The translations under genes and the position numbers were made by a program. Positions 47,088-59,067 of a stretch of DNA of 64,000 nucleotides are shown piece by piece; position 1 is the stretch's first letter; each line of letters starts with the position of its first letter. The notes beneath the pieces were generated by a model. The model saw only the letters and a program-made list of their open reading frames with translations, made no database searches and was not told where the DNA came from. Source of the DNA: Dokdonella sp. (GTDB lineage Bacteria; Pseudomonadota; Gammaproteobacteria; Xanthomonadales; Rhodanobacteraceae); the NCBI GenBank assembly GCA_024707225.1, contig JANQAE010000001.1, positions 1,793,387-1,857,386 of the forward strand, in the 5' to 3' direction.

Positions 47088-50000
47088 ATGCTCGCCGCCC
47101 TCGTCCGCGCCTCGCTGGCCCATCCGCGCATCGTCGCGGCGCTGGCGCTGCTGGTCACGCTGGCCGGCGCGTTCGCGCTGGCGCGCGCACGCTTCGACGT
47201 TTTCCCGGATTTCGCGCCGCCGTTCGTGCTGGTGCAGATCGAGGCGCCGGGCCTGTCGGCGCCGCAGGTCGAGGCGCAGGTGACGCGGCCGGTCGAGTCG
47301 CTGCTGGCCGGCACCGAGAACGTCGCGACGATCCGCTCCAGTTCGGCGCAGGGCCTGGCCGCGATCCGCGTGATCTTCCATCGCGGCAGCGATCCGCATC
47401 GCCAGCGCCAGGCCGTGATCGAGCGGCTGGCCGAGGCCGGCGGCCTGCTGCCCGACGGCGTGCGCGCGCCGCAGCTCTCACCGCTGTCCTCGTCGATGGA
47501 GTACCTGCTGCACTTCGGCTACACCAGCGACACCCTCGATCCGCTCGCACTGCGCGATCTCGTGCAATGGTCGGTCCAGCCGCAGATCCTCGCGGTGCCG
47601 GGCGTCGCGCACGTGCAGCTGTTCGGCGGCCAGGCGCGCGAGCGTCGCGTCGAGATCGACCCGCTGCGCCTGGCCGCGGCCGGGCTCGGACTCGACGCGG
47701 TCGTCGAGGCGATCGCGGCGGCCACCGCGCCGGCCGGCGCCGGCTACGTCGAGACCGCGGTGCAGCGGCTGGTGGTCCAGGTCGAGCCGACCGCGACCGA
47801 TGCCGCCGCGCTGGCCGCGGCCGTCGTCGATCTCGCCGATGGCGTGCCACGCCGGCTCGGCGACGTGGCGACCGTCGTCGACGGCGCGCAGCCGCTGTTC
47901 GGCGACGCGACGATCGCCGGCAAGCCGGGCATCCTCGTCGAGACCTCCTCGCAGTACGGCGCCAACACGCTGGAGGCCACGCGCGCGCTCGAGGCGCGGC
48001 TCGACGCGCTGGCGCCGGCGCTGGCGGCGCAGGGCGTCACCTACCATCCGGCGCTGCTGCGGCCGGCCAGCTTCGTCGAGCACGCGATCGAGAAGATGCG
48101 CCGCTCGCTGGTGATCGGCGCGGCCCTGGTCGTCGCGCTGCTGCTGGTGATGCTGCGCGACTGGCGCGGCGCGCTGATCTCGTTCAGCGCGATTCCGCTG
48201 GCGCTGCTGGCGGCGGTCTGGCTGCTGTCGGCCTGGGGCTTCAGCCTCAACACGATGACGCTCGGCGGCCTGGTCGTCGCGCTCGGCGTCGTCGTCGACG
48301 ATGCGGTGATCGACGTGGAGAACATCCTGCGCCGGCGCCGCGAGGCGGCCGCCGGTGCCGACGTCGACGCCCTGTTCGCCGCGGCCTCGCTCGAGGTGCG
48401 CCGGCCGGTGTTCTACGCGACCGCCGCGGTCGCGGTCGCGTTCGTGCCGATCCTGTCGATGAGCGGCCTGCAGGGCGCGTTCTTCGGTCCGCTGTCGATC
48501 GCGTTCCTGCTCGCGGTCGGACTGTCGCTGATCGTCGCGCTGGCGGTCACGCCGGCGCTGTGCATGCTGTTCATGCGCGACCACGCGCCGGCGCCGGAGG
48601 CGCGCTTCCTCGACCGCTGCAAGACCGTGCAGCGCGGCATCGTCGCGCGCGCGCGCGCGCGCGCCCGCTGCTGCCGGCCGTGCTGCTGATCGCGACCGGC
48701 GTGGCCGGCGTCGCGCTGCTGCCGCTGTTCGGCGCGCGGCTGCTGCCGGACTTCCGCGAGACCTATCTGATCGCGCACAGCGGCCTGCGGCCCGGCGTCG
48801 CGATCGCCGAGACCGCACGCGTCGGCCGCGAGGTGTCCGCGCGCCTGCTCGAGATCGACGGGGTGCGCAGCGTCGCCCAGCAGATCGGCCGCGCCGAGAA
48901 CGGCCAGGACACCGACACGCCGAACGAGAGCGAGTTCGAGATCCGCATCGAGCCGACCGCCGCCCGCCCGCTCGAGGCGATCGAGGCCGACATCCGTGCG
49001 GTGTTCGAGCGCTATCCGAACCAGCAGGCCGAGGTCTATTCGGTGCTGGCCGAGCGCATCGGCGAGACGCTGACCGGCGAGAGCGCGCCGTTCTCGGTCG
49101 GCGTGTTCGGCAGCGATCTGGACGAGAACGACCGCGTCGCCGCGGCGATCGCCGAGGTGATCGACGATCTGCCCGATGCGGCCGGCGTGCGCCTGGTCGT
49201 GCCGCCGCGCGAGCCGCAGCTGCGCGTGCAGCTCGACGGCGAGGCCCTGGCGCTGCACGGCCTGGCCGCCGGCGAGGTGCTGCGCACGATCCAGGCCGCA
49301 TTCCACGGCACCGTCGCGGCCGAGATGACGCTGCCGGACCGCAGTCTGCCGGTGGTCGTGCGCATCGCCGGCGGCGACGGCGGACCGGACGCGCTGCGGC
49401 GCCTGCCGCTGCGCGGACGCGACGGCGCGACCGTCACGCTCGGCGAGCTCGCGTCGATCGATCTGGTCAGCGCGCGCAGCGTGCTCGACCACGAAGATGG
49501 ATTGCGCCGCCAGGTCGTCGTCGCGCGGCCCGAAGGCGGCGACCACGTCGGCTTCGCGGCGCGCGCGCGAGGCGATCGCGGCGCAGGTGACGTTGCCGCC
49601 CGGCGTCTACCTGCGCTACGGCGGCAGCGCCGAAGCGCAGCGCGCGGCCGCGCGCGAGCTGATCGTGCACTCGGGATTCGCCGCCGTCGTGATCGTGCTG
49701 CTGCTGGCGCTCGCGTTCGGGCGCGCGCGCCACGTCGCGCTGACGCTGGCCGCGCTGCCGAGCACGCTGATCGGCGGCGTCGCCGCGCTGTGGCTCAGCG
49801 GGGGCACGCTGAACCTCGGTGCGATGGTCGGCTTCGTCGCGCTGTTCGGCATGGCCGCGCGCAATACGATCCTGCTGATCTCGCACTACGACCATCTGGT
49901 GCACGCCGAGGGCGCGCCGTGGACACTGGAAACCGCCCTGCGCGGTGCGACCGAGCGCCTTACGCCGGTGCTGCTGACCGCGCTGCTGACCGCGCTGGCG

Positions 50001-50159
50001 CTGTTGCCGGTCGCGCTGCAGAGCCGCGAGGCCGGCCACGAGATCGAAGGCCCGATGGCGATCGTGCTGCTCGGCGGCCTGGTCTCCTCGACCCTGGTCA
50101 GCCTGCTGCTGATTCCGCCGCTGGCGGTGCGCTGGCTGCGCATGGCGCCGGCGCGCTGA
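47088..50159 (+). CDS. HME-type (CusA/CzcA-like) RND transporter (two apparent frameshifts near 48655 and 49560)
   Basis: FDVFPDFAPP.V.VQIEAPGL, NTMTLGGL...VVDDAVIDVENI, EAGHEIEGPMAIVLLGGL. Confidence 0.88.
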
Positions 50160-50226: not shown

Positions 50227-51881
50227 TCAGTCGAAACCTTCGGCCAGCAGCGATTCGGGCACGCCGGCCGATCCGCGCAGGTACAGCTGGGCCAGGCTGC
50301 TGATGCCCTGCACGTTGACGCGCACCAGCACACGGCCGTTGCTGCTGGCCCAGCCGTCCTCGCCGAGATAGTTCTGATCGATCAGGCCGGACGTGGTGAC
50401 CGAGGTCACCACACGGTCCTCCGGGCCGGTCGCGGTCGGCACCTTGACCAGGTCGCCCGGTCCGAGCTCGCGCACCGGCGCCGCGCCGGGGCGCAGCCGC
50501 CAGATGCCGCGCTCGTTCGGGTTGCCGACCTCGCCGAAGATCAGCACCTCGCCGCTGTCGAGCACCTGCGTGCGGTGGAACTCGCGCCACGGCCGGCCCG
50601 GCGCGGCGGCGTAGCTGCCGGTGTCGCCGACGATCGCGATCGGCTCCGGCGGCAGGCCCGGCACCAGGCGCCAGACGCCGGCGGTCGAACTGGTGCCGGC
50701 GATCGGCTTGATCGTCGTGCGCAGCAGGCCGTAGCGCCCGGCGCGGCCAGCTCGGTCGGTGCGCCGGTCGCGTTGAACACATAGCCGCTGTAGCCCGGGC
50801 CGAGGCTGCCCTCCACGTTGTACAGATAGACCGGCGCGTTCTGTCCGTCGGCGTGCAGGAAGCCGCCGTTGCTCGAGCCGTTCGGCGAGCTCACGCGCGC
50901 CCAGAAGTAGAACGCGTCGCGATGCGCCGGGCGGATCGCGCCGAACTCGCTGAACGTGTAGGAGGTGTCGTTCATCCCCGGCCCGAGGCTGCCGGTCACC
51001 GCCGCACGCGCCTGCACTTGCGGCGCGCCGCGGCACAGCGAGAAAATCCCGCGGCCGTTGGTCCCGCTTTCGCGGAACGCGGCGGCGACGTAGACCTCGC
51101 CACGGCTACCGACCACCGGCATGTCGATCGTGTAGCTGCCGCTGTCGTAGAACACCGCCGAGCCGATGCCGGGCGCATAGGCGGGTTCGTTCGATCCCTC
51201 CAGCAAGCAGGCGCGATTGCCGACCCCTCCCTGATGCAGGATCACCGCGTGCAGCGAGCCGGTCACGGTCGCATCGATCAGGACCCGCTGTCCCGGCAGT
51301 GCGCGTGCGCGCGGGTAGCCGGTGCTGGTGGTCGTGCCGAGATTCGTGAACACGACGCCGGCACCGAGGCCGGGGCCGAGCGCCCCTTCGGTATTGAGCC
51401 GCGCGATCTCGGCATTGGCCGAGCCGTTCCACATCCATACGCCGTAGGTCGCCGCATCGGCCGGCTGGGTCGGCTCGCCGGCGCGCGCGCCGAAGACGCG
51501 ATGGGCCTGGCCGCTCGAATCCTGCTTCTGGAACAGCGTGCGGAACACGTGGCCGGCCTCGCCGCCGCTGCGGCCCGGCCCGGTCGCGCCGGTGGCCATG
51601 TTCTCGGCGATCGGCGTCAACGTGCCGTTGCGCTCGGCCCACAGCGAGAACGGGCCGGCGCTGCCGGCGTTGCGCGCGAAGCCGAGGGCGCCGTTGCCAC
51701 CGCTGGCCAGCGAGGCCCATTCCAGATCGAAACCGGTCGCCGAAGGCAGCAGCGGCGGGATGGCCAGGCCCGAGTCGGTGTCGGCGGCGACGACGCGCCA
51801 GTCGGGGGCGGCCTGAGCGGCCGGTCCGCCGAGCGCGAGCGCGCAGGCGACGGCCAGGCCGGCGGGAAGGGTGCGGGACAT
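50227..51881 (-). CDS. Secreted tandem-repeat (beta-propeller-like) protein with C-terminal ESLLAEGFD tail (apparent frameshift near 50745)
   Basis: Signal peptide MSRTLPAGLAVACALALGGPAAQA; a [GA]PG-x4-6-F unit recurs about six times at roughly 60-aa spacing; C-terminal part is in ORF 50227..51036. Confidence 0.72.
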
Positions 51882-52026
51882 CAGGGGTTCTCCATGTCGA
51901 TCGATCGGGTGCTGCCCGCCGCGCGGCCGCACCGGCGACGGGATACCGGTGGCGGCCGCTGCGGCGAGCAGGGCGGCGGCAGTCTAGGCAGCGCGCCGGT
52001 CCGGGTCGGCACGGATCGGCACCGGC

Positions 52027-52046
52027 GCGGTAACGAAGCGGTAACG
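52027..52046. promoter_or_regulatory. Tandem direct repeat, 11-bp period (OmpR/CadC wHTH-type site)
   Basis: GCGGTAACG-AA-GCGGTAACG in the divergent intergenic region. Confidence 0.6.
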
Positions 52047-52161
52047 GCATCGATCCGGCATGCCGCTGCGATGACGGATCGATGATTCAACTGAGACAGT
52101 GCGCCGCGCGACGCAGACAGGGGTGGCTGCGCGCGCGGCTCGGACATGAGGCGGAAGAACG

Positions 52162-54945
52162 ATGAAAGACACCCCATTCCCGCGTGAGCAGACCTGCTAT
52201 CGCTACCGGTTCGGCACGGCGGAATTCGACGAGGCGACCTACGAGCTGCGCGTGGCCGGACTGCGCGTGGAGGTCGAGCGGCGCGCGCTGGAGGTGCTGG
52301 CCTGCCTGCTGCGCCACGCCGGCGAGGTGGTCACCAAGGAAGAACTGTTCGCCGAGGTCTGGGCCGGCCGCGTCACCGTCGACAAGGTGCTGCCGAACGC
52401 GATCGCCAAGCTGCGCCGCGCGCTCGGCGAAGCCAATGCCGAGCTGCTGACGACGCAGGCCCGGATCGGCTACCGCCTGAGCGGCCTGATCGAGCGCGTC
52501 GCGATCGGCCGCACCCTGCCCAATCCGCTCGCGCTGCGCGCCGGCCAGCCGGTGCCGGGCCGCGAGAACTTCATCCTGCGCCGTCAGCTCGGCGGCCATC
52601 ACGACAGCGAGGTCTGGCTGGCCGAGCACGCCAAGACGCACGAGAAGCGCGTCTACAAGTTCGCGGTCGGCGACGACCGGCTCAAGGCGCTCAAGCGCGA
52701 GGCGACACTGGCGCGCGTGCTGCAGGAGAGCCTGGAAGGGCCGCGCCCGTTCGTCGACCTGATCGACTGGAACTTCGAGAGCGCGCCGTTCTTCCTCGAA
52801 TGCGGCTACGGCGGCCAGAGCCTGCAGGCCTGGGCCGAGCACGCGCTGGCGGCGCTGCCGACGGACGAGCGGCTCGCGCTGTTTCTCGACGTCGCCGACG
52901 CGGTCGCGGCCGCGCACGCGGTCGGCGTGCTGCACAAGGACCTCAAACCCGCCAACGTGCTGGTCGAGACCGACGGCGACCGGCGCCGCGTGCGCCTGAC
53001 CGACTTCGGCAGCGGCCGCATGCTCGATCCGGACCGCATCGAGGAGCTCGGCATCACGCGTTTCGGCCTGTCGGCGACCCAGCACCTGGCCGCCGACTCC
53101 TCGTCCGGCACGCCGCTGTACCTGGCGCCGGAGGTGTTCGCCGGATACGCCTCGACCGTGCGCAGCGACGTCTACGCGCTCGGCGTGATGCTCTACCAGC
53201 TGGTCGCCGGCCAGATCGCCAAGCCGATGGCGTCGGGCTGGGAGCAGGACGTCGACGACCCGCTGCTGCGCGAGGACATCGCGCAGGCCACGCACGGCGA
53301 CCCGGCGCAGCGCCTGGGCAGTGCCGCGGAACTGGCCGCTCGCCTGCGCGCATTGCCGGCCCGGCATGCCGCGAACCGGCGCGCGCGCGAGGCCGCGGCG
53401 CAGGCCGCGCGCGAGCACGAGTCGCTGGCACGCAGCCGCGCGCGGCGTCCGTATCTGGTCGCACTCGTCGCGGTGCTGGTCGCCGGCGTGGTCAGCGCGC
53501 TGGCGCTGTACCGCGCCGCCGTACAGGCGCGTGACCAGGCCGAGCGCGAGCTGGCCTCGGCGGTCGCGATCAACCGCTTCCTCAACGAGGACCTGATCAG
53601 CCGCGCCAATCCGCTGGTCGTCGCCAAGGGCCAGGGCGCGACGCTGCAGGACGTTCTGGTCGGCGCGCGCGAGCGCATCGCCGGCCGCTTCGCCGGGCAG
53701 CCGCTGGTCGAGGCCTCGATCCGCAGCAGCCTGAGCGCCCTGTTCAACACGATCGAGCGCCTGCCCGACGCCGAGGACGAGGCGCGCCGCGCGCTGGCGC
53801 TGTACGAGCGCGAGGAAGGCCCGTCCAGCCTCGACGCGCTGAAGGCGCGCGGCGTGCTGATCCGCCTGCTGACGCGCACCGCCAAGTTCGACGAATGCCT
53901 GCGCGAGCTGCAGACCTTCGATCGTTTGTTGGAAAGCTCGACCGAGCCGTATGCGGCGTACCTGCAAGCCTACGCCTGGGGCATCTACCACATGAACCGC
54001 GGCGACTACGCCAAGGCCCTGCCCGAATACCGCAAGGCGATCCCGGAGCTGGCCGAACTCGAACCGCGCAACCGCATCCTGCGCGATTCGCTGCGCATGG
54101 ACCTGATCGGCGCGCTGACCCAGACCGGCCAGCTCGACGAAGCGCGCCGCGAGGGCGAGGCGCTGATCGCCGAGATGCGCGGACGCGGCGACGAGAACGG
54201 TCTGACGATCGCGTTCGCGCGCGCGGCGGTCGCGCGCACCTGGACGCTCGAGGGCGACTACGAAACCGCGCAGACCCAGCTGCTCGACGCGCAGAAGACG
54301 ATCGTCGCGCTGCTCGGACCGGAGCACACGCGCAATCTGATGGTGCTGAGCGATCTGTTCGACATCGCGATGCGCCGCCAGGACTGGCCGGCCGCGCTCG
54401 GCTACGCGCAGCGCGTGCACGAAGGCTTCCGCGCCAAGCTCGGCGAGGGCCACAACGTCAGCGACGCGACGCTGGCCAACTGGGGTCAGGCGCTGTACGA
54501 GAGCGGCGACGCGGCCGGCGCCTATGCGCGCCTGGCGCCGGCTCAGCAGCGCCTGGCCGAGCGGCTATCGGCCGACAATCCGCAGACCCAGCTCGCCGGC
54601 TTCTGGACCGCAGCGGCCGCCGTCGAGACCGGCCGGCTCGACGCGGCCGAGGCGATCATGGCGACGTTGAAGGCCGACACGCTCGAGGCCGGTGCAGGCG
54701 ATGGCTTGTGGACCTACCGCCTCGACGCGCTGCGAGGCCTGCTCGCGGCCGCGCGCGGCGGCCGCGATGAGGCCGGCATCGCGCTGCGCAGCGCATTGGC
54801 CGGCATCGAGAACCACGACGGCCCGCCGAGCCGCGTGTTCGACGCCGCACGCCGCGCACTGGCCGGCGGTGACGCGGCCAACGGCGCTTCCGTGCCAGCG
54901 GCGCGCGCCGCACAATCGCCGCTTTCCCGCGAGAGCCTGCCATGA
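52162..54945 (+). CDS. CadC/OmpR-type wHTH - Ser/Thr kinase - TM - TPR fusion protein
   Basis: Trans_reg_C (VVTKEELFAEVW...AIAKLRRALG...GYRL); kinase VYK, HKDLKPANVL, TDFGSG, GTPLYLAPE, SDVYALG; TM YLVALVAVLVAGVVSALAL; helical repeats. Confidence 0.92.
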   Translation: MKDTPFPREQTCYRYRFGTAEFDEATYELRVAGLRVEVERRALEVLACLLRHAGEVVTKEELFAEVWAGRVTVDKVLPNAIAKLRRALGEANAELLTTQARIGYRLSGLIERVAIGRTLPNPLALRAGQPVPGRENFILRRQLGGHHDSEVWLAEHAKTHEKRVYKFAVGDDRLKALKREATLARVLQESLEGPRPFVDLIDWNFESAPFFLECGYGGQSLQAWAEHALAALPTDERLALFLDVADAVAAAHAVGVLHKDLKPANVLVETDGDRRRVRLTDFGSGRMLDPDRIEELGITRFGLSATQHLAADSSSGTPLYLAPEVFAGYASTVRSDVYALGVMLYQLVAGQIAKPMASGWEQDVDDPLLREDIAQATHGDPAQRLGSAAELAARLRALPARHAANRRAREAAAQAAREHESLARSRARRPYLVALVAVLVAGVVSALALYRAAVQARDQAERELASAVAINRFLNEDLISRANPLVVAKGQGATLQDVLVGARERIAGRFAGQPLVEASIRSSLSALFNTIERLPDAEDEARRALALYEREEGPSSLDALKARGVLIRLLTRTAKFDECLRELQTFDRLLESSTEPYAAYLQAYAWGIYHMNRGDYAKALPEYRKAIPELAELEPRNRILRDSLRMDLIGALTQTGQLDEARREGEALIAEMRGRGDENGLTIAFARAAVARTWTLEGDYETAQTQLLDAQKTIVALLGPEHTRNLMVLSDLFDIAMRRQDWPAALGYAQRVHEGFRAKLGEGHNVSDATLANWGQALYESGDAAGAYARLAPAQQRLAERLSADNPQTQLAGFWTAAAAVETGRLDAAEAIMATLKADTLEAGAGDGLWTYRLDALRGLLAAARGGRDEAGIALRSALAGIENHDGPPSRVFDAARRALAGGDAANGASVPAARAAQSPLSRESLP

Positions 54946-55629
54946 CCTACGCCTTCCCCGCACCGCCGATCGCCAGCGTGCCGATCGCCGGCGAAGCCGA
55001 GCGCTTCCCGGTGCACCGGATCTACTGCATCGGCCGCAACTACGCCGATCATGCGCGCGAGATGGGCGCAACCGCCGGACCGCTCGCAGCCGGTGTTCTT
55101 CATGAAGCCGGCCGACGCGATCGTGACCGACGGGGCCGACGTGCCGTATCCGCAGGCGACCGGGGATCTGCATCACGAGGTCGAGATGGTTGTCGCGCTC
55201 GGCGCCGGCGGTCGCGACATCGCGGCCGCCGACGCGCTCGGCTGCGTGTTCGGCTACGGCGTCGGCCTGGACCTGACGCGACGCGATCTGCAGGCGCGCG
55301 CGAAGGCCGGGGGCCTGCCGTGGGACGTCGCCAAGGGCTTCGACCATTCCGCGCCGGTCTCGGCGCTGCATCGTGCGGCAGCGATCGGCCATCCGGCACG
55401 CGGCGCGCTGACGCTGCACGTCGGCGGTGCGCTGCGCCAGAACGGCGACGTCGCCGACATGGTGTTCAGCGTCGCCGAGGTCATCCACGAGCTATCGCGG
55501 CTGTACGAATTGCGCGCCGGCGATCTGATCTTCACCGGCACGCCGGCCGGCGTCGCGGCGTTGCAACGCGGCGACGTCTTCGTCGCGGCGCTGGACGGCG
55601 TCGCGACGCTCGAGGGCCGCGTCGTCTGA
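54942..55629 (+). CDS. Fumarylacetoacetate hydrolase family protein (apparent frameshift near 55072)
   Basis: RIYCIGRNYADHARE, FFMKP, LHHEVE, GLDLTRRDLQ, AKGFD, GDLIFTGTPAGV. Confidence 0.92.
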
Positions 55630-55680: not shown

Positions 55681-55859
55681 GGATCACGCATCGAACCGGC
55701 AGCGTCCCGTCGGCGCATCACGCCGCCGCGCATCCGGTACGGCGCCGCCAGCACGAGCGGCCGGACAGCCCTCGCCGCGTTCGAGCGCCACATCGTCCGA
55801 CGCCCCGGCCCTGACGACACGCAGCCGGCACCGGCGAGGCACCGGCCGCGTGCGATGCC

Positions 55860-59056
<3,197 letters not shown>

Positions 59057-59067
<11 letters not shown>

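What the first reader, a model, noticed from the sequence alone, without database searches (positions are those of the whole stretch)
52162..54945. One-component wHTH - Ser/Thr kinase - TM - TPR regulator
Seen: a CadC/OmpR DNA-binding domain is fused directly to a Hanks kinase with intact catalytic motifs (VYK, HKDLKPAN, DFG, APE) but a degenerate Gly loop (GGHHDS). A TM helix and about 480 aa of helical repeats follow. Established: related kinase-TM-TPR proteins (PknS/PknT) activate separate ECF43 sigma factors, while CadC/ToxR regulators lack kinases. Inference: this is a hybrid transmembrane transcription factor in which periplasmic sensing is relayed by cis or trans phosphorylation of its own wHTH. 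To my knowledge this logic is little characterised.
Basis: partly seen in the sequence, partly recalled or inferred. Interest (0 to 1): 0.72.

Follow-up and report, generated by a model that had tools for sequence, protein, structure and literature searches.

The report
Membrane transcription factor with built-in kinase
One 927-residue membrane protein of a Dokdonella bacterium joins a DNA-binding domain, a eukaryote-type protein kinase and a periplasmic repeat sensor. It belongs to a large unstudied family that always sits beside its own conserved DNA site and an exported-protein gene, so the whole sensor-to-gene route can be tested directly.

Summary
ORF 52162-54945(+) encodes wHTH (Trans_reg_C), a Hanks kinase, one TM helix and a ~450-aa TPR solenoid.

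In 77 homologues (40-95% identity) every catalytic residue is invariant. These include K166, E180, H-K-D260, N265, DFG and APE. The Gly loop is never canonical, so GGHHDS is a family trait.

New evidence for the transcription-factor role:
- Four phased 11-bp direct repeats (52005-52046, ending GGTAACG-N4-GGTAACG) lie in the divergent intergenic region. The perfect pair is unique in the 4.37-Mb genome.
- The pair recurs at 13-14 of 14 positions upstream of 44 related loci.
- Half-site sequence co-varies with the recognition helix in three classes, including the genome's own paralogue.
- A -10-like TAGCAT lies a fixed 18 nt from repeat 1 on the strand of the divergent gene.

This geometry fits a PhoB-like activator of that gene. 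In close orthologues the gene encodes a signal-peptide beta-propeller protein with the GFD-type C-terminal tail.

No sigma factor, phosphatase or FHA gene is conserved nearby.

Whether the kinase phosphorylates its own wHTH is untested, and no family-specific Ser/Thr marks the wHTH.

I found no published characterisation; one census counts 27 such proteins in a supplementary table. I class it as a new variant of ToxR/CadC-type regulators and PknS-type receptor kinases.

The parts
52162..54945 (+). Whole gene: 927-aa wHTH - Hanks kinase - TM - TPR protein
   Evidence: ORF. (domains). (more than 4600 homologues, the top 120 all with the same architecture). (the independent contigs covering the ORF show no indel; X12 is collinear throughout).
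52207..52479 (+). OmpR/PhoB/CadC-type winged helix-turn-helix, residues 16-106. The recognition helix reads TVDKVLPNAIAKLRRALGE.
   Evidence: Pfam Trans_reg_C at 35-106. Nearly invariant in 17 orthologues. Helix residues 75, 78 and 79 co-vary with the operator half-site.
52480..52566 (+). Conserved linker of about 30 residues between the wHTH and the kinase (G108, R112, G116, V131, R134, N136, F137 invariant)
52567..53346 (+). Hanks-type kinase domain, residues 136-395. It is non-RD (H-K-D), has a degenerate Gly loop, and has a 38-residue activation loop rich in Ser/Thr.
   Evidence: Pfam Pkinase at 142-353. In 77 sequences K166, E180, H258, K259, D260, K262, N265, DFG, T317, APE, D336 and R384 are 100% invariant. 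Among about 35 kinases in the genome it has one of the two lowest full-domain Pkinase scores.
53347..53451 (+). Arg-rich juxtamembrane segment, residues 396-430; helical by composition, not modelled
   Evidence: invariant R396, R401, R424, R429, P430. (positive-inside charge).
53452..53520 (+). Single transmembrane helix, residues 431-453
   Evidence: the only segment with Kyte-Doolittle above 2
53530..54882 (+). Periplasmic TPR-like superhelix, residues 457-907. It begins with the conserved motif AINRFLNEDLIxRxNP.
   Evidence: AF2 pLDDT 90.8, pTM 0.88. Foldseek matches to peptide-binding TPR proteins. It evolves faster than the cytoplasmic half: 22-28% identity where the whole protein is 40-44%.
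54883..54942 (+). Lineage-specific disordered C-terminal tail, residues 908-927
   Evidence: pLDDT below 50. Absent from orthologues other than P0001 and L028. Three runs carry about 2.46 kb in place of window 54744-54938.
52005..52046 (+). Predicted operator: four direct repeats in 11-bp phase. R1 GTCGGCACG, R2 CGGCACCG, R3 GCGGTAACG, R4 GCGGTAACG.
   Evidence: sequence. (14/14 match to GGTAACG-N4-GGTAACG in 26 related loci, 13/14 in 18 more). (the perfect pair is unique in the 4.37-Mb genome). (anchored information profile shows all four repeats).
51981..51986 (-). -10-like hexamer TAGACT (family consensus TAGCAT) on the strand of the divergent gene, 18 nt from repeat R1
   Evidence: TAnnnT at this fixed offset in 29 of 42 loci, plus 4 where the anchor shifts by one repeat. 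Nothing comparable is conserved on the kinase side. The paralogue class shows the same spacing.
50227..51881 (-). Divergent partner gene, the probable target. It encodes a signal-peptide protein of about 550 aa with a beta-propeller-like fold, ending in ESLLAEGFD. In this assembly it is split by a missing C after position 50741.
   Evidence: homologous divergent gene in 30 or more loci. (no Pfam family). (AF2 of the L044 orthologue: pLDDT 81.8, all-beta, generic propeller matches). (all four runs carry the extra C, so the gene is intact elsewhere).
52048..52084 (.). 14-nt inverted repeat CATCGATCCGGCAT / ATGACGGATCGATG directly after R4. It is present only in the closest relatives.
   Evidence: It appears only in WIN, L028 and L044. 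Function unknown.

Best explanation
This is a membrane-anchored one-component transcription regulator with an embedded Hanks kinase.

Topology. The N-terminal wHTH and the kinase face the cytoplasm. One helix crosses the membrane. A TPR superhelix of about 450 residues faces the periplasm.

DNA binding. Several molecules bind head-to-tail to four 11-bp-phased direct repeats at 52005-52046. Repeat R1 sits where the -35 element of the divergent promoter would be, 18 nt from a -10-like TAGACT.

Output. The bound array therefore most likely activates the divergent gene for an exported beta-propeller protein with a GFD-type tail, as PhoB, OmpR and ToxR do at their promoters.

Signal relay. The periplasmic TPR domain is the input and probably binds a peptide or protein ligand. 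The kinase lies between input and output. It most likely converts ligand-driven oligomerisation into activation-loop autophosphorylation, which stabilises or licenses the DNA-bound oligomer.

Shown here: the architecture, the topology signals, catalytic-residue invariance, the operator with its uniqueness and its covariation with the recognition helix, the fixed promoter geometry and the conserved gene pairing.

Inferred: DNA binding itself, activation rather than repression, the nature of the ligand, kinase activity and its substrate.
For: Architecture and topology.

Family size. More than 4600 homologues were found, and the top 120 share the architecture. At least 563 genomic matches were confirmed in Lysobacterales, Steroidobacteraceae, Nevskiaceae, Thioalkalivibrio, Burkholderiales, Hyphomonas and others.

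Operator.
- The tandem GGTAACG-N4-GGTAACG always has the orientation of the kinase gene. It matches 14/14 in 26 related loci and 13/14 in 18 more.
- The perfect pair occurs once in the 4.37-Mb genome, where the heptamer occurs only 88 times on both strands.
- An anchored profile shows four phased repeats.

Specificity covariation.
- Helix VDKVLPNA goes with GGTAACG.
- Helix VDHVLATA goes with CTTCAAG. This class includes the genome's own paralogue at C3:242186-244825.
- Helix VENVLANA goes with CTAACG.

Promoter geometry. TAnnnT lies on the partner strand at a fixed 18-nt spacer from R1 in 29 of 42 loci, plus 4 with a shifted anchor. Nothing is conserved on the kinase side. The CTTCAAG class has the same spacing.

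Gene pairing. The only conserved neighbour is the divergent exported-protein gene. No sigma factor, phosphatase or FHA gene is conserved.

Kinase competence. K166, E180, HKD, N265, DFG, T317, APE, D336 and R384 are invariant in 77 sequences down to 40% identity. A conserved Ser/Thr cluster (GITRxGLTxTQ...DSSSGT) sits in the activation loop.

Input domain. The model is a high-confidence TPR solenoid whose nearest solved folds bind peptides: APPBP2, Rap, KLC and LGN.
Against: - Nothing was measured. DNA binding, activation and phosphotransfer all rest on comparative inference.
- The Gly-rich loop is non-canonical in every member.
- The domain scores far below the genome's other full-length kinase domains against Pkinase (79.6 bits against 117-196). 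Nucleotide binding could therefore be weak or altered.
- No family-specific Ser/Thr is invariant in the wHTH, the linker or the juxtamembrane region, so the substrate is unknown.
- The sigma-70 consensus scan found no promoter in the intergenic region.
- The -10-like box is weak here (TAGACT, 4 of 6) and is absent from about a fifth of loci.
- The distance from the operator to either start codon varies by more than 100 bp among orthologues.
- The metatranscriptome contig that spans the locus may be carried-over DNA, so expression is not shown.
Confidence: 0.6

Rival explanations
1. The kinase is a structural module, in effect a pseudokinase. It serves only as a dimerisation or spacer element. 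Signalling would then work as in ToxR or CadC, by ligand-controlled oligomerisation or proteolysis, without phosphotransfer.
For: The Gly loop is never canonical in 77 members, and this copy keeps only the first Gly. Its Pkinase score is among the two lowest of the genome's full-length kinase domains. No conserved phosphatase gene and no family-specific phospho-acceptor lie outside the activation loop.
Against: Every residue needed for catalysis is 100% invariant over 40-95% identity: K166, E180, D260, N265, D281, and also T317 and APE. From general knowledge, pseudokinases usually lose one or more of these. The activation loop keeps a conserved Ser/Thr cluster.
Confidence: 0.2
2. The kinase's main substrate is a separate protein, for example another regulator, an envelope or secretion component, or RNA polymerase. 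The wHTH would mainly tether and cluster the kinase on DNA. That would give DNA-dependent trans-autophosphorylation, as described for YabT, or simple autoregulation.
For: The related receptor kinase PknS, which is kinase-TM-TPR, acts on a separate protein, the sigma factor EcfK (PMC13147305). YabT is a Hanks kinase activated by DNA binding (abstract of PMC6333020). Four phased sites would bring several kinase domains side by side. The genome holds about 35 Hanks kinases, so a dense phospho-network is plausible.
Against: No candidate substrate gene is conserved next to the family. The operator is unique in the genome and sits at a fixed distance from the partner promoter. That points to a dedicated transcriptional output rather than mere tethering.
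Confidence: 0.12
3. The repeat array is a repressor or autoregulatory site. The protein would shut off its own gene, or the partner gene, rather than activating the partner.
For: The array lies between two divergent genes, 116 bp upstream of the kinase start codon. No sigma-70 consensus promoter was detected. The distance to the kinase start is variable but always short.
Against: The conserved -10-like box is on the partner strand, with R1 in the -35 position and the other repeats further upstream. From general knowledge this is activator geometry for OmpR/PhoB-type proteins. Nothing is conserved at a fixed offset on the kinase side.
Confidence: 0.08

Closest known systems
ToxR / CadC / TcpP / PsaE-type transmembrane transcription regulators (membrane-integrated one-component systems)
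   Same: An N-terminal cytoplasmic OmpR-type wHTH without a receiver domain, a single N-in TM helix and a periplasmic sensor domain. The predicted binding site is a set of direct repeats next to the target promoter. The regulator gene lies adjacent to its target.
   Different: A complete Hanks kinase domain of about 300 residues is inserted between the wHTH and the membrane. The periplasmic domain is a TPR solenoid, not a ToxR- or CadC-type sensor fold. The exported partner is transcribed divergently rather than co-transcribed like ToxS, TcpH or PsaF. In the census of such regulators, Pkinase occurs in 27 proteins (0.05%) and is not discussed (PMC10269533).
PknS (Xanthomonas citri) and PknT (Vibrio parahaemolyticus) receptor kinases that phosphorylate ECF43 sigma factors
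   Same: Hanks kinase, single TM helix and periplasmic TPR-rich domain (PMC13147305). A kinase-TM-TPR protein in the same genome (C2:534571) aligns with residues 230-905 of this protein and follows a weak ECF sigma hit.
   Different: Here the transcriptional output is fused to the kinase as a wHTH, instead of being a separate sigma factor. No sigma gene is conserved nearby. The kinase is non-RD (HKD) and has a degenerate Gly loop.
Separate Ser/Thr kinase and OmpR-type or SARP regulator pairs (PknH-EmbR, AfsK-AfsR; Stk1 or PrkC acting on response regulators)
   Same: A Hanks kinase is coupled to an OmpR-family DNA-binding domain. This is from general knowledge of those systems and the review PMC4601284.
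   Different: In those systems kinase and regulator are separate proteins, and recognition often uses FHA or receiver domains. Here they form one polypeptide with no FHA, BTAD or receiver domain.
Hybrid DNA-binding sensor kinases (Bacteroides hybrid two-component systems, ChiS of Vibrio cholerae)
   Same: One membrane protein holds sensor, kinase and DNA-binding output (PMC10269533; bioRxiv 10.1101/2020.01.10.902320).
   Different: Those use histidine-kinase and receiver chemistry. This protein uses a Hanks Ser/Thr kinase fold.

Membership tests
ToxR/CadC-like transmembrane transcription regulators | Cytoplasmic N-terminal OmpR-type wHTH without a receiver domain | tested here: met
   Trans_reg_C at 35-106 with no Response_reg hit
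ToxR/CadC-like transmembrane transcription regulators | Single TM helix with N-in, C-out orientation and a periplasmic sensor domain | tested here: met
   One hydrophobic segment at 431-450 with positive-inside charge. A folded domain of about 450 aa follows it.
ToxR/CadC-like transmembrane transcription regulators | wHTH joined to the membrane by a short, non-enzymatic linker | tested here: not met
   A full Hanks kinase domain, residues 136-395, lies in between
ToxR/CadC-like transmembrane transcription regulators | Binds repeats at the promoter of an adjacent target gene | tested here: inconclusive
   Comparative support is strong: a conserved, unique operator that co-varies with the recognition helix at a fixed offset from a -10-like box. 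No binding assay is possible with these tools.
Hanks-type (eukaryote-like) Ser/Thr protein kinases | Catalytic Lys (subdomain II), alphaC Glu, catalytic loop D-x-K-x-x-N, DFG, APE, subdomain IX Asp and subdomain XI Arg | tested here: met
   All are present and 100% invariant in 77 homologues
Hanks-type (eukaryote-like) Ser/Thr protein kinases | Gly-rich loop GxGxxG | tested here: not met
   The window reads GGHHDS. The family pattern is [GSA]-x-x-x-G-S-E-V-W and the canonical second Gly is never present.
Hanks-type (eukaryote-like) Ser/Thr protein kinases | Phosphotransfer activity | not testable with these tools
   Needs an autophosphorylation assay
PknS/PknT-type ECF43-coupled receptor kinases | Kinase - TM - periplasmic TPR architecture | tested here: met
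   PknS architecture from PMC13147305.
PknS/PknT-type ECF43-coupled receptor kinases | Adjacent ECF43 sigma factor gene as substrate | tested here: not met
   No sigma gene appears among the conserved neighbours in about 75 loci. No Sigma70_r2 hit lies near C1:1845548 in the own genome.
OmpR/PhoB response regulators | N-terminal receiver domain with a phospho-acceptor Asp | tested here: not met
   No Response_reg match. NCBIfam hits cover only the C-terminal DNA-binding part of the PhoB models.
SARP / AfsR / EmbR regulators | BTAD domain after the wHTH (plus FHA or NB-ARC in the large forms) | tested here: not met
   No BTAD, FHA or NB-ARC hit in Pfam or NCBIfam

The most novel reading that the evidence does not exclude
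The module may be an export-monitoring loop. The periplasmic TPR solenoid would bind the exported partner protein itself, perhaps through its floppy C-terminal GFD-type tail or as a secretion intermediate. The kinase would then report periplasmic load of that cargo back to the cargo's own promoter.

In favour:
- The regulator and its paralogue in this genome are each paired with unrelated exported proteins (a propeller and an RCC1-repeat protein) that both end in the same tail.
- The nearest solved folds of the sensor are peptide and C-terminal-degron receptors.

Against:
- Homologues with the same operator are paired with lipoproteins that lack this tail.
- Divergence of the TPR domain tracks overall divergence, with no jump where the partner family changes.
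Probability: 0.12. Interest if true: 0.8.

Novelty: new variant of a known kind. Interest (0 to 1): 0.62.

Why it matters
Bacterial Hanks kinases are abundant, and this 4.4-Mb genome alone has about 35. For very few of them is the path from signal to gene known, because substrates are usually separate and promiscuous.

Here sensor, kinase and DNA-binding output lie in one polypeptide. The predicted operator is unique in the genome and there is a single adjacent target gene. One reporter construct and a few point mutants (K166A, D260A, activation-loop Ser/Thr, operator half-sites) could therefore show what a Hanks kinase contributes to a ToxR-like membrane regulator.

The three natural helix/half-site classes give a ready-made specificity code for OmpR-type domains. 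They could also serve as orthogonal parts for synthetic sensors.

The link to exported proteins bearing the GFD-type tail gives a possible regulatory handle on that uncharacterised export tag.

Tried and rejected
- Sigma-70 promoter and terminator scan of the intergenic region: nothing found. The -10-like box emerged only from the anchored multi-genome profile.
- Pfam and NCBIfam on the partner protein: no family. The fold search gave only generic beta-propeller matches with TM about 0.3, so no function is assigned.
- Fold search of the TPR domain: only generic peptide-binding TPR proteins at E about 1e-6. No specific ligand can be inferred.
- Genome-wide operator scan for a regulon: only the local site is perfect. 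The single 13/14 site, at C2:102560, has no clear promoter context, so I treat the regulator as local.
- Operator distance to the start codons, to decide which gene is controlled: too variable on both sides, with SD 40 and 50 bp.
- Metatranscriptome run X12: a 6.2-kb contig spans both genes, but the run also holds a 57-kb contig, so DNA carry-over is likely. I do not count it as evidence of expression.
- Eight literature searches for the fused architecture found no characterised member.
- Pseudogene reading of the partner gene: rejected. All four independent runs carry the extra C after 50741.
- Membership of the ECF43-coupled kinase class: rejected, because no sigma gene is conserved nearby.
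Full report
**Observation**

- Pfam finds Trans_reg_C at residues 35-106 and Pkinase at 142-353, with weak TPR hits further on.
- NCBIfam adds PhoB/CadC-type hits over the wHTH and a long TPR stretch at 533-834.
- There is one strongly hydrophobic segment, 431-450, with more basic residues before it than after it. This puts the wHTH and kinase in the cytoplasm and the C-terminal half in the periplasm.
- AlphaFold2 models residues 457-927 with pLDDT 90.8 and pTM 0.88 as about 21 paired helices. The last 20 residues are disordered.
- Contigs from four independent public runs show no indel in the ORF where they cover it, and one contig (X12) is collinear across all of it.

**The family**

The protein is not a one-off.
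- The protein search returned more than 4600 homologues. The top 120 are all about 900 aa with the same domain set and carry only generic names.
They lie in Dokdonella, Tahibacter, Rudaea, Chiayiivirga, Aquimonas, Luteimonas, Pseudoxanthomonas and Stenotrophomonas. They also lie in Steroidobacteraceae, Nevskiaceae, Thioalkalivibrio, Woeseiaceae, Mitsuaria, Methylibium, Hyphomonas and one Acidobacteriota MAG.
- The distribution is patchy. Ten of 61 genomes and 7 of 30 genera of the host's family have a copy. So do 4 of 401 evenly drawn genomes of the phylum, including the window's own.
- The window's genome is a 4.37-Mb Dokdonella, judging by the closest hits. It has one paralogue at 44% identity, at C3:242186-244825.

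**The kinase**

I aligned 77 sequences spanning 40-95% identity.
- K166, E180, H258-K259-D260, K262, N265, D281-F-G, T317, A322-P-E, D336 and R384 are invariant.
- HKD in place of HRD is a family signature.
- The Gly loop follows [GSA]-x-x-x-G-S-E-V-W and never has the canonical second Gly. The window's GGHHDS is one variant of a family-wide trait.
- The 38-residue activation loop holds a conserved Ser/Thr cluster (GITRxGLTxTQ...DSSSGT).
- Against the Pkinase model, the two wHTH-fused kinases score 79.6 and 73.2 bits. The genome's other full-length kinase domains (about 30 of its ~35 kinases) score 117-196.

I read this as a divergent kinase that is probably still active. Activity itself is not shown.

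**The DNA site**

The 280-bp region between this gene and the divergent gene contains GCGGTAACG twice, 11 bp apart. Four lines of evidence tie it to the wHTH.

- *Conservation.* The same tandem pair, always in the orientation of the kinase gene, matches 14 of 14 specified positions upstream of 26 related loci and 13 of 14 in 18 more.
- *Uniqueness.* In the window's own genome the perfect pair occurs once, at this locus. The heptamer occurs only 88 times on both strands.
- *Extent.* Anchoring 41 non-redundant loci on the pair shows four repeats in exact 11-bp phase. In the window they are GTCGGCACG, CGGCACCG, GCGGTAACG and GCGGTAACG, at 52005-52046.
- *Covariation.* The half-site changes together with the recognition helix:

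| Recognition helix | Half-site | Where |
|---|---|---|
| VDKVLPNA | GGTAACG | this gene and its orthologues |
| VDHVLATA | CTTCAAG | includes the genome's own paralogue |
| VENVLANA | CTAACG | Thioalkalivibrio and other distant homologues |

This covariation is the strongest comparative evidence available without an experiment that the wHTH binds these repeats.

**Which gene is controlled**

- The same anchored profile shows a conserved ATGCTAG 18 nt beyond repeat R1, on the side of the divergent gene. Read on that gene's strand it is TAGCAT, a -10-like TAnnnT.
- It sits at that fixed offset in 29 of 42 loci, and in 4 more where the anchor slips by one repeat. No element is conserved at a fixed offset on the kinase side.
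- The window has TAGACT at 51986-51981.
- R1 therefore occupies the -35 position of the divergent promoter, with R2-R4 upstream of it. From general knowledge, this is the layout used by PhoB and OmpR as activators.
- The CTTCAAG class keeps the same 18-nt spacing.
- The consensus promoter scan found nothing here. That is expected for an activator-dependent promoter in a 73% G+C genome, but it means the promoter is inferred.

**The partner gene**

- In about 58 of 72 loci with enough upstream DNA, the adjacent gene is divergent. It usually starts with a signal peptide or lipoprotein signal.
- In 30 or more loci it belongs to one family of about 550 aa with no Pfam match.
- AlphaFold2 models the orthologue from L044 as an all-beta, propeller-like protein with pLDDT 81.8. 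Only generic propeller matches were found.
- These proteins end in a GFD-type tail such as ESLLAEGFD or DLIFRNGFDG.
- The paralogue is paired with an unrelated RCC1-repeat protein that carries the same tail.
- More distant homologues, some with the same operator, are paired with other exported proteins. One is a 350-400-aa lipoprotein family, one is a CsgG-like lipoprotein with a PG_binding_1 domain, and one is an InlB-B-repeat lipoprotein.
- No sigma factor, phosphatase or FHA gene is conserved nearby.

So the regulator and its operator form a stable module whose cargo gene has been exchanged.

**Assembly quality**

- The window's partner gene is split into two frames. All four runs carry an extra C after 50741, so the gene is intact in nature.
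- All four runs also lack one base at 55075. That joins the two pieces of the downstream FAA-hydrolase gene.
- Three runs carry about 2.46 kb in place of window 54744-54938. The window-type arrangement gives the protein its non-homologous, disordered last 20 or so residues. It also gives an ATGA overlap with the hydrolase gene.

**Mechanism**

The best-supported reading is a ToxR/CadC-like membrane regulator. It binds a phased repeat array and activates the divergent exported-protein gene, with a Hanks kinase placed between the periplasmic TPR input and the wHTH output.
- The TPR domain resembles peptide-binding solenoids.
- It evolves faster than the cytoplasmic half, as sensor domains commonly do.

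The kinase's role is the weakest link.
- Invariance of the catalytic residues argues for activity.
- No family-specific Ser/Thr marks the wHTH. T58, T72 and T98 sit at positions that, as I recall, are commonly Ser/Thr in OmpR-family domains (from general knowledge; not checked here).
- None marks the linker or the juxtamembrane segment either.

I therefore favour activation-loop autophosphorylation that controls oligomerisation on the array, over direct phosphorylation of the wHTH.

The rivals are a pseudokinase scaffold, a separate trans substrate with DNA-tethered activation, and repression or autoregulation.

**Comparison with the known**

- PknS is a kinase-TM-TPR protein that phosphorylates the ECF43 sigma factor EcfK (PMC13147305). 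PknT/EcfP is the Vibrio counterpart (PMC8999054).
- The same genome holds such a pair at C2:533908/534571. Its kinase aligns with residues 230-905 of this protein.
- The present family looks like that receptor kinase with the transcription output fused on. It fails the defining feature of an adjacent sigma gene.
- It meets the topology features of ToxR/CadC-type regulators but fails the 'no enzymatic domain' feature.
- Eight literature searches found no characterised member. The census of transmembrane regulators lists Pkinase in 27 proteins in a supplementary table and does not discuss it (PMC10269533).
- Earlier notes of this scan reached a similar reading for relatives in other genomes. These are not independent evidence. 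Here I re-derived the operator and the gene pairing from the sequences.

**Verdict**

The transcription-factor logic has strong comparative support. Phosphorylation of the protein's own wHTH is untested and has no specific sequence support.
- It is a new variant of known kinds, in a large and essentially unstudied family, with an unusually complete and testable predicted circuit.

Noticed in passing
window 50741 and 55075: This assembly has two single-base indels relative to contigs of four independent runs. A C is missing after 50741, which splits the partner gene. An extra base at 55075 splits the FAA-hydrolase gene 54942-55629. This suggests homopolymer-type errors.
   Followed up: yes
window 47088-50159 (+) and 55684-59067 (-): Two CzcA-like RND transporter genes flank the locus. 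Each reads in two or three frames, which suggests further frameshifts of the same kind, either assembly indels or pseudogenes.
   Followed up: no
window 54744-54938: Three runs (X1, X3, X7) carry about 2.46 kb of other sequence in place of this stretch, so the 3' end of the kinase gene is structurally polymorphic. The window-type arrangement has the non-homologous, disordered last 20 or so residues and an ATGA stop/start overlap with the FAA-hydrolase gene.
   Followed up: partly
G000:C3:242186-244825 (L022) and its upstream gene: The own-genome paralogue (44% identity) has its own operator, GTCCTCACG-GTCTTCAAG-ACCTTCAAG. It is paired divergently with a 760-aa RCC1-repeat exported protein ending DRIFAYGFEP. 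This is the same GFD-type tail as on the window's partner.
   Followed up: partly
whole genome G000: This 4.37-Mb genome has about 35 Hanks-type kinase genes and about 25 further long ORFs that begin with an OmpR-type wHTH (CadC-like). That is a large signalling repertoire for a genome of this size.
   Followed up: partly
G000:C2:533908-536850: A weak ECF sigma hit (Sigma70_r2, below the cut-off) lies directly upstream of a kinase-TM-TPR gene homologous to residues 230-905 of the finding. It is probably a PknS/EcfK-type pair.
   Followed up: no
window 52048-52084: A 14-nt inverted repeat (93% complementary, 9-nt loop) lies directly after operator repeat R4. It is present only in the closest relatives (L028, L044). 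Function unknown.
   Followed up: no
G000:C2:102560: This is the only other near-match (13 of 14) to the tandem operator in the genome. It lies in a stretch with no clear coding signal within about 600 bp and no obvious promoter context.
   Followed up: partly
L039, L048, L049 (Rudaea) upstream genes: Here the same regulator and operator are paired with a lipoprotein that has CsgG-like and PG_binding_1 domains, instead of the propeller protein. In Rudaea sp. 3F27F6 (the L039/L019 locus) a protein with an IPTL-CTERM-like end follows; this was not checked in L048 or L049.
   Followed up: no
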